Source: the human T2T-CHM13v2.0 reference genome, Homo sapiens | Reading direction: 5' to 3' (one strand) | Assembly (NCBI RefSeq): GCF_009914755.1 | Contig: NC_060925.1 | Length of the DNA stretch: 64,000 bases | In this document: positions 10,283-11,658 of the stretch, piece by piece | Layout: the number at the start of each line of letters is the position of its first letter | Position numbering within the stretch: the stretch's first letter is position 1 | Position numbers and translations under genes: made by a program | The notes under the pieces: generated by a model | The model's database searches: none | Told to the model about the DNA's origin: nothing | What the model saw: the letters and a program-made list of their open reading frames with translations, nothing else

Positions 10283-11337
10283 TCATTTAAGAAAGAAGAC
10301 ACTTTTCCTAAGATGTGAGGTACAGATTGAAATATTTGCCAAGTGCAAGGTAGAATTAGTGAGAAGAGACCTCCACCACAACACCTCCCAGTGGGCTTTT
10401 TAATTAACAACAACAAAAAAAGAAAATCATATAGACAGAAAAGCACAGGTTACTTACAAGGACAAAGAATCACGTTGGACCCCAATTTGTCTGTAACAGT
10501 AAATGTTGGAATAGAGTGGAATAATTACTGCAGTTTTGAAAGATAAAGTTTGACCCGTAATTTGATTTACAATCAAGTTGTCATTTATATCCCATGTCAA
10601 AAGGAAAGCATTCTCATATATGCATGGTACAGAAAGTACTGCAGTTATAAGCCCTACTGAAAAAAAAAAAACAAAACCCAAAACTAAAGTAGGGAATTCA
10701 GACACCAGCAGGGATAAATACAACCAGAAAAGTATAATAACTATTGTCAATGAGCTAACAAAACAAAATGCAAATGCAAATTCAAAAATTTGCTCTTGGG
10801 GAAGAAGTCCACAATTTAAAAAATAACTACTATAACATTAATATAAAAGTCCAAATATATCAAGAAAAACTTGAAAATTAGAGATGGGTCAGGTATGTAT
10901 GGAAAAGCGAGGAAGCAAAATCAAAACAACACAAACAAAAGCGCAGAAAGAACAACACAAGATGACAGATATCAGACCAAATAATTCACTTGTAAAATAA
11001 ATGAGTCAACTTCCTCTTAAAAGAGAAAGACTTGGAGAAAATGAGAGAAGATATGTCAGGAAAACAGATGCAAAAATTGCTAGATATACAAGAAGACAAC
11101 AAAATATCATAACTGTAATGGGAAATACTTTCATGCAACATTCACAATCATTGATACATCAAATAGAAAAACAAAATGAAGACTGTTGAGTAGCGGTCCT
11201 TAAGCTTTTTCTCCCCCAACGCAACTCAGGGACAGGGACATAGTGCACTCCCATCAGTACCAATGGCTTGTTATCAGTGTTTCTCCAAATGAGGAATAAG
11301 GGACTCTCTGAATATACTGATATTGATATCTACAGGT

Positions 11338-11593
11338 TTTTTTTTTTTTCTTTTGAGACGGAGTCTCTCTCTGTCGCCCAGGCTGGAGTGCAATGGCGCG
11401 ATCTTGGCTTACTGCTACCTCCACCTCCCGGGTTCAAGTGATTCTCCTGCCTCAGCCTCCCGAGTGGCTGGGATTACAGGCACCCACGACCATGCCCAGT
11501 GAATTTTTGTATTTTTAGTAGAGATGGGGTTTCACTGTAATCCCAGCACTTTGGGAGGCTGAGGCAGGTAGATCACTTGAGGTCAGGAGTTTT
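11338..11593 (-). mobile_element. AluS with inverted 5' segment
   Basis: Minus-strand Alu 3' part at 11338-11535 joined to a plus-strand left-arm piece at 11535-11591; TSD ATATCTACAGGT at 11326-11337 and 11594-11605. Confidence 0.88.
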
Positions 11594-11658
11594 ATATCTA
11601 CAGGTCTTATACATCTTTCTCTCTTTCTCTCTCACTCTCTCATCTTCCTCCCCCATCT

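What the first reader, a model, noticed from the sequence alone, without database searches (positions are those of the whole stretch)
11326..11605. Alu with a twin-priming-type 5' inversion inside a single TSD
Seen: between two copies of ATATCTACAGGT lie a minus-strand Alu 3' portion (tail back to GTGAAACCCC, about consensus position 105) and, fused with a 1-nt overlap at 11535, a plus-strand left-arm piece (CTGTAATCCC...CAGGAGTT, about positions 23-81). The pieces do not overlap, about 24 nt between them is missing, and the position-81 end abuts the TSD. Known: this is the geometry of twin priming during target-primed reverse transcription. It is common for L1 and processed pseudogenes and considered rare for Alu RNA. 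Inference: this is one insertion event rather than two Alus.
Basis: partly seen in the sequence, partly recalled or inferred. Interest (0 to 1): 0.7.

Follow-up and report, generated by a model that had tools for sequence, protein, structure and literature searches.

The report
Alu copy with flipped front end
In an intron of the human CSMD2 gene, the front piece of an Alu repeat lies backwards against the rest between two copies of one short flanking sequence, likely because the Alu RNA was copied from both cut DNA ends at once, a rare but known accident of which this genome holds at least ten more likely cases.

Summary
Between two exact 12-nt direct repeats (11326-11337, 11594-11605) lie a minus-strand Alu body (consensus 102-282 plus A-tail) and a plus-strand piece (consensus 23-79), sharing 1 nt at 11535; positions 1-22 and 80-101 are absent. 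The junction is unique in the genome. Both pieces are AluS-like; finer subfamily assignment is unresolved.

Genome scans found 11 loci, this one included, with this geometry and a strict flanking duplication: 8 of 20 short-piece hits, 0 of 51 long-piece hits, 1 of 380 mismatched-flank controls, and 3 of 12 hits of a second scan. Their inverted pieces stop near where the bodies start (Spearman 0.92), as twin priming on one RNA predicts.

Verdict: a real, likely twin-primed Alu (about 0.85), a new member of a known rare class (1 of 5,554 and 1 of 5,936 in print). No orthologues could be checked. The value lies in the set: priming 64-170 nt from the RNA's 5' end argues against an absolute ~500-nt requirement proposed for L1.

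The parts
11326..11337 (.). Target-site duplication, tail-side copy (exact 12 nt; 11323-11340 if read as 18 nt with 2 mismatches)
11338..11354 (-). A-rich tail of the Alu (17 nt with one interruption; poly-T on the + strand)
11355..11535 (-). Non-inverted Alu body, consensus 102-282 (end of left arm, linker, whole right arm); 18 differences in 181 nt, 10 at CpG columns
11535..11535 (.). Inversion junction: 1-nt overlap (consensus 102 of the body = consensus 23 of the inverted piece)
11535..11591 (+). Inverted left-arm piece, consensus 23-79; 4 differences in 57 nt, 3 at CpG columns
11592..11593 (.). Two T's between consensus position 79 and the exact 12-nt repeat; target sequence under the 18-nt reading, extra bases under the 12-nt reading
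11594..11605 (.). Target-site duplication, 5'-side copy (exact 12 nt; 11591-11608 if read as 18 nt)
11605..11610 (+). Likely L1 endonuclease site under the longer duplication reading: TCTT/AT against the consensus TTTT/AA
   Evidence: sequence; consensus from PMC2912911; the nick position is inferred

Best explanation
This is an AluS-like element whose left-arm piece (consensus 23-79) lies inverted against its 3' part (102-282) between two copies of one short direct repeat, likely a single insertion made by twin priming. Inferred steps: L1 ORF2p nicked the + strand at TCTT/AT and copied the Alu RNA from its A-tail to position 102. The second nick, 15-18 nt away, freed a 3' end that annealed to the same RNA near position 79-82 and was extended to position 23. 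The two cDNA ends were joined through 1 shared base, losing 80-101 and 1-22, and gap filling made the duplication. The copy lacks the Alu 5' end and most likely cannot move again; no function is claimed.
For: Exact 12-nt repeat on both sides, chance about 3e-5. Non-overlapping pieces in twin-priming polarity. Junction found once in the genome, also with 3 mismatches allowed in 32 nt. Both pieces fall in the S-like class of a 3-class model (posteriors 0.83 and 0.998) and their divergences do not differ (Fisher p 0.61). Of collinear Alus with the body's right-arm states, 8,097 keep positions 65-66 as the piece does and 1,714 lack them. Class evidence: strict duplication in 8 of 20 short-piece loci, 0 of 51 long-piece loci, 1 of 380 mismatched controls and 3 of 12 loci of a second scan. 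In the 11 passes the piece end tracks the body start (Spearman 0.92, median gap 5 nt). All 10 passes other than this one have 1-3 nt of overlap between duplication and piece (null 0.32 each, p about 1e-5). L013 and L015 carry the Y-like states in both pieces. Opposite-polarity control: 1 hit against 15.
Against: No orthologue or empty site was seen, so one event is inferred. This locus has the largest deletion of the 11 (22 nt) and no clean priming overlap: offset -2 under the exact repeat, +1 only under the 18-nt reading with 2 mismatches. Junction overlap is only 1 nt. A 4-class model split the pieces (piece 0.95 to one class, body 0.85 to another); local copies with three of the body's states were 7 kept against 5 deleted at 65-66. 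Seven of the 20 short-piece loci have no duplication at all and five score only 8-9, so the geometry can arise or decay by other routes. The flank has a third, 78% copy of the repeat word at 11748-11765, which makes the chance figure somewhat optimistic.
Confidence: 0.85

Rival explanations
1. A normal or 5'-truncated Alu inserted first, and its left arm was later inverted with deletions by microhomology-mediated repair or replication template switching.
For: 7 of 20 short-piece loci lack any duplication, so other routes to this geometry may exist. This locus has weak overlaps at both junctions.
Against: It needs one breakpoint within 2 nt of the duplication edge and loss of both 1-22 and 80-101. 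Ten other loci put the piece end at the duplication edge with 1-3 nt overlap, which later random inversions would not do.
Confidence: 0.06
2. Twin priming on two different Alu RNA molecules: the second DNA end primed inside another Alu transcript.
For: Twin priming across different RNAs is proposed for antisense L1 chimeras (PMC13174262, passages). The 4-class model splits the pieces, and the 22-nt gap is the largest deletion in the set.
Against: The piece stops 22 nt short of the body start; an independent RNA would land within 25 nt only about 21% of the time, and all 11 loci do. Genome counts make the two pieces a common pairing.
Confidence: 0.05
3. One insertion, but the inversion arose by end-joining of broken cDNA or RNA-DNA pieces during 5' attachment, without a second priming event.
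For: No clean priming overlap at this locus. Short 5' overlaps also occur in 5'-truncated Alu and L1 copies (PMC2912911, passages).
Against: The polarity is the one twin priming predicts in all 11 loci; the opposite polarity gave 1 hit against 15.
Confidence: 0.02
4. Two unrelated Alus lie head to head, one eroded, and the flanking repeat is a coincidence.
For: Head-to-head pairs are the commonest source of this junction: 51 of 71 hits have a long second piece (several are duplicates of one another).
Against: None of those 51 has a shared duplication. Here the piece has no right arm or tail of its own, and the repeat has a chance of about 3e-5.
Confidence: 0.01
5. The element is a faithful copy of a source Alu that was already inverted.
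For: None found.
Against: The junction occurs once in the genome: exact 19 nt, and 32 nt with up to 3 mismatches. The structure lacks positions 1-22.
Confidence: 0.01

Closest known systems
[quoted passage not shown]
   Same: One duplication, A-tail, inverted 5' piece whose 3'-most RNA position faces the 5' duplication, small gap or overlap at the inversion point, short junction overlap.
   Different: The template is a ~300-nt Alu RNA. The inverted piece is 57 nt against germline L1 medians of 751 nt inverted and 571 nt non-inverted. Priming is 79 nt from the RNA 5' end, whereas no junction lay in the first 590 bp of L1 among 298 inversions (PMC5668948).
Published 5'-inverted Alus: one chimpanzee-specific copy (PMC2912911), one germline AluYb8 (PMC12016303), one somatic copy in PCAWG (cited in PMC12016303)
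   Same: Same class and anatomy. In the AluYb8 example the inverted piece also ends near position 20 (my reading of the supplement text).
   Different: Those are young or polymorphic; this is an AluS-like copy in the reference assembly, about 10% diverged from the consensus (22 of 238 sites), with its breakpoints inside the left arm.
Head-to-head Alu pairs (nested insertion or deletion between inverted Alus)
   Same: Same junction polarity; 51 of 71 scan hits are of this kind.
   Different: There the second Alu runs on into its right arm, mostly to its own tail, and no duplication encloses both.

Membership tests
Twin-primed 5'-inverted retroinsertion | One target-site duplication flanks both pieces | tested here: met
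   12 nt exact, 18 nt with 2 mismatches
Twin-primed 5'-inverted retroinsertion | A-tail at the 3' end of the non-inverted piece | tested here: met
   11338-11354
Twin-primed 5'-inverted retroinsertion | Inverted piece comes from 5' of the body, with its 3'-most position next to the 5' duplication | tested here: met
   23-79 against 102-282
Twin-primed 5'-inverted retroinsertion | Inversion point with only a small deletion or duplication | tested here: met
   22-nt deletion; range in the 11 strict loci -23 to +22; 46% of L1 cases within 20 bp
Twin-primed 5'-inverted retroinsertion | Microhomology at the internal priming site | tested here: inconclusive
   Offset -2 with the exact repeat; 1 nt with the 18-nt reading; up to 3 of 4 nt at positions 79-82 if the tail-side copy is ancestral (post hoc)
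Twin-primed 5'-inverted retroinsertion | Microhomology at the inversion junction | tested here: inconclusive
   1 nt, no more than chance often gives
Twin-primed 5'-inverted retroinsertion | L1 endonuclease site at the first nick | tested here: inconclusive
   TCTT/AT under the 15-18-nt reading, not among the three motifs counted in PMC12016303; no consensus site under the 12-nt reading
Twin-primed 5'-inverted retroinsertion | Empty orthologous site with one copy of the target; no collinear ancestor | not testable with these tools
   No relatives of this genome are held
AluS | Lacks the J-like and Y-like linked states in both pieces | tested here: met
   3-class model on 92 copies; the labels J, S, Y for the classes are recalled, not from a call
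One fine AluS subfamily (Sx/Sz/Sq level) | Both pieces carry the diagnostic bases of one subfamily | tested here: inconclusive
   4-class model discordant; genome counts 8,097 against 1,714 compatible; no curated consensus set available

The most novel reading that the evidence does not exclude
The reference genome holds an overlooked set of some tens to a few hundred old, twin-primed Alus. They show that second-strand priming can occur 64-170 nt from the 5' end of a ~300-nt RNA, so the ~500-nt free-5'-end requirement proposed for L1 is not intrinsic to twin priming; their breakpoints would map which parts of the folded, protein-bound Alu RNA are open to priming.
Probability: 0.6. Interest if true: 0.55.

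Novelty: new member of a known kind. Interest (0 to 1): 0.4.

Why it matters
The single locus is most likely an inert intronic fossil. Its use is as a lead to a class. PMC12016303 leaves open why Alus invert about a thousand times less often than L1 and had one example of its own. A narrow exact-match probe found 11 strict and 5 borderline cases in one assembly. A full catalogue would let one test whether RNA length, RNA folding or selection explains the rarity, and would test the ~500-nt rule of PMC5668948. A side effect: the inversion is predicted to fold the element into a 52-bp hairpin in the CSMD2 pre-mRNA sense, longer than in any of 92 ordinary copies (maximum 40), which could be an RNA-editing substrate; this is untested.

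Tried and rejected
Sibling copies of the junction: none, so an inverted source element was rejected. Fold-back of the right arm: rejected because the piece matches left arms better than the element's own right arm. Rfam: only sub-threshold SRP and Alu-derived microRNA matches, uninformative. Correlation of body identity with piece identity across 92 copies: none (rho 0.03), so nearest neighbours cannot assign a source. The 33 hits of the fourth head-to-head scan were not classified, so the counts are lower bounds. Junction gaps above 60 nt were not scanned. Ostertag and Kazazian 2001 was not held; the figure supplement of PMC2912911 came out garbled and only its legend was readable. PMC3415434, PMC12350158 and PMC13141329 (passages) gave no inverted-Alu data in the passages shown. 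Earlier scan findings were not open.

Full report
OBSERVATION. The 12-mer ATATCTACAGGT lies at 11326-11337 and 11594-11605 and nowhere else exactly in the window. The match extends to 18 nt with 2 mismatches. From local base composition the chance of an exact 12-mer in that slot is about 3e-5; a third, 78% copy of the word at 11748-11765 makes that figure somewhat optimistic. I built a 282-nt majority consensus from 92 full-length Alus of this genome and numbered on it. The minus-strand body is 102-282 (window 11535-11355) with a 17-nt A-rich tail. The plus-strand piece is 23-79 (11535-11591). They share one base; 1-22 and 80-101 are missing.

THE ENDS. Two T's lie between position 79 and the exact repeat. 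The longer duplication reading (15-18 nt) is the more plausible one, because it puts the first nick at TCTT/AT, near the TTTT/AA consensus (PMC2912911), whereas the 12-nt reading gives no endonuclease-like site. Under the 18-nt reading the target end overlaps the piece by 1 nt. If the tail-side copy is the ancestral one, 3 of 4 bases match positions 79-82; this is post hoc. The priming hallmark is therefore weak at this locus.

ONE RNA OR TWO. Differences from the consensus are 4 of 57 in the piece and 18 of 181 in the body, not distinguishable (Fisher p 0.61). A 3-class model fitted on the 92 copies puts both pieces in the S-like class (0.83 and 0.998). A 4-class model splits them (piece 0.95 in one class, body 0.85 in the class lacking 65-66). 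Genome-wide counts do not support that split: of collinear Alus with the body's states at 153, 154, 163 and 244, 8,097 keep 65-66 and 1,714 lack them. The class names J, S and Y are recalled. The junction is unique in the genome, so the element was not copied from an inverted source.

THE CLASS IN THIS GENOME. I scanned the assembly for two exact 16-nt anchors in head-to-head order. Gaps of 0-30 and 31-60 nt gave 15 and 56 hits; the tail-to-tail control at 0-30 gave 1. All 71 were parsed. A strict duplication (score 10 or more) enclosed both pieces in 8 of 20 loci whose inverted piece stops before position 140, this locus included; in 0 of 51 whose piece runs further; and in 1 of 380 mismatched flank pairs. 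Five more short-piece loci scored 8-9 and seven had none. Several of the 51 are duplicates of one another. A scan anchored in the right arm added 3 of 12; 33 hits of a further scan were not classified. The 11 strict loci are L008 (this one), L013, L015, L016, L020, L022, L033, L055, L081, L082, L086. In them the end of the inverted piece tracks the start of the body (Spearman 0.92; gaps -23 to +22, median 5 nt), and this locus has the largest deletion. All 10 others have a 1-3 nt overlap between duplication and piece (null 0.32 each; p about 1e-5; the finder maximises the match, so this is somewhat favourable). L013 and L015 carry Y-like states in both pieces. The same first pair of anchors occurs collinearly 155,954 times, so 8-13 cases are 0.005-0.008%, or about 60-100 per 1.15 million Alus (total recalled). 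This is a lower bound for one breakpoint range.

MECHANISM. Shown: geometry, duplication, tail, uniqueness, class statistics. Inferred: ORF2p nicked the + strand and copied the RNA from the tail to 102; the second nick primed on the same RNA near 79-82 and copied to 23; the two cDNAs were joined through one base; fill-in made the duplication. Confidence 0.85. Rivals: later inversion of a collinear copy (0.06), twin priming on a second Alu RNA (0.05), end-joining without second priming (0.02), two Alus with a chance repeat (0.01), inverted source (0.01). No orthologue could be examined.

WHAT IS KNOWN. PMC2912911 (parts 1-2 of 5 of the text, passages, supplement 2 garbled) found 1 inverted Alu in 5,554 against 30.9% of L1s. 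PMC12016303 (passages and supplement 2) found 1 in 5,936 germline Alus, cites 1 in 130 somatic Alus from PCAWG (not read), and leaves the cause of the rarity open. [quoted passage not shown] PMC13174262 (passages) proposes twin priming for antisense chimeras of different RNAs. I found no description of this locus and no catalogue of old inverted Alus in seven searches of the open library (listings only for most papers). Subscription papers and unread supplements could hold one.

NOVELTY AND SCORE. The locus is a new member of a known, rare kind. The finding becomes more useful as a set: the 11 strict cases outnumber the three examples I found in print, and their priming sites lie 64-170 nt from the RNA 5' end, which argues against an absolute 500-nt rule. 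The inversion is also predicted to give a 52-bp hairpin (z -9.4 against shuffles; ordinary copies have a median of 19 and a maximum of 40 bp) in the CSMD2 sense, with no evidence of function. Interest 0.4.

Noticed in passing
L013, L015, L016, L020, L022, L033, L055; L081, L082, L086: Ten further Alus with an inverted 5' piece inside one strict target-site duplication, for example G000:C3:178331141, C8:137157765, C15:70952019, C22:47046702, C2:56347234, C5:133620246. L019, L026, L028, L057 and L060 are borderline.
   Followed up: yes
L015, L026, L033, L055 junctions: Long imperfect overlaps (11-22 nt) at the inversion junction, where the Alu 5' end is partly complementary to positions about 72-105 of the same RNA. 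Built-in self-complementarity may guide the joining of the two cDNAs.
   Followed up: no
window 11425-11479 and 11535-11589: The inverted left-arm piece is 80% complementary to the element's own right arm; a 52-bp hairpin is predicted in the CSMD2 pre-mRNA sense. Possible editing substrate.
   Followed up: partly
window 11591-11790: The flank is CT-rich low-complexity sequence with degenerate copies of the duplication word (11707-11748, 11748-11789).
   Followed up: partly
L035-L037, L040, L041; L058, L059, L062, L074, L075; L029, L078, L079; L090, L091: Groups of near-identical head-to-head Alu junctions on several chromosomes, probably spread by segmental duplication (acrocentric arms, Y, pseudoautosomal region); they are not independent events.
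   Followed up: no
51 long-piece loci: Many long second Alus abut an opposite-strand Alu that begins at positions about 97-110. The anchor choice confines that range, so a true hot spot is not shown.
   Followed up: no
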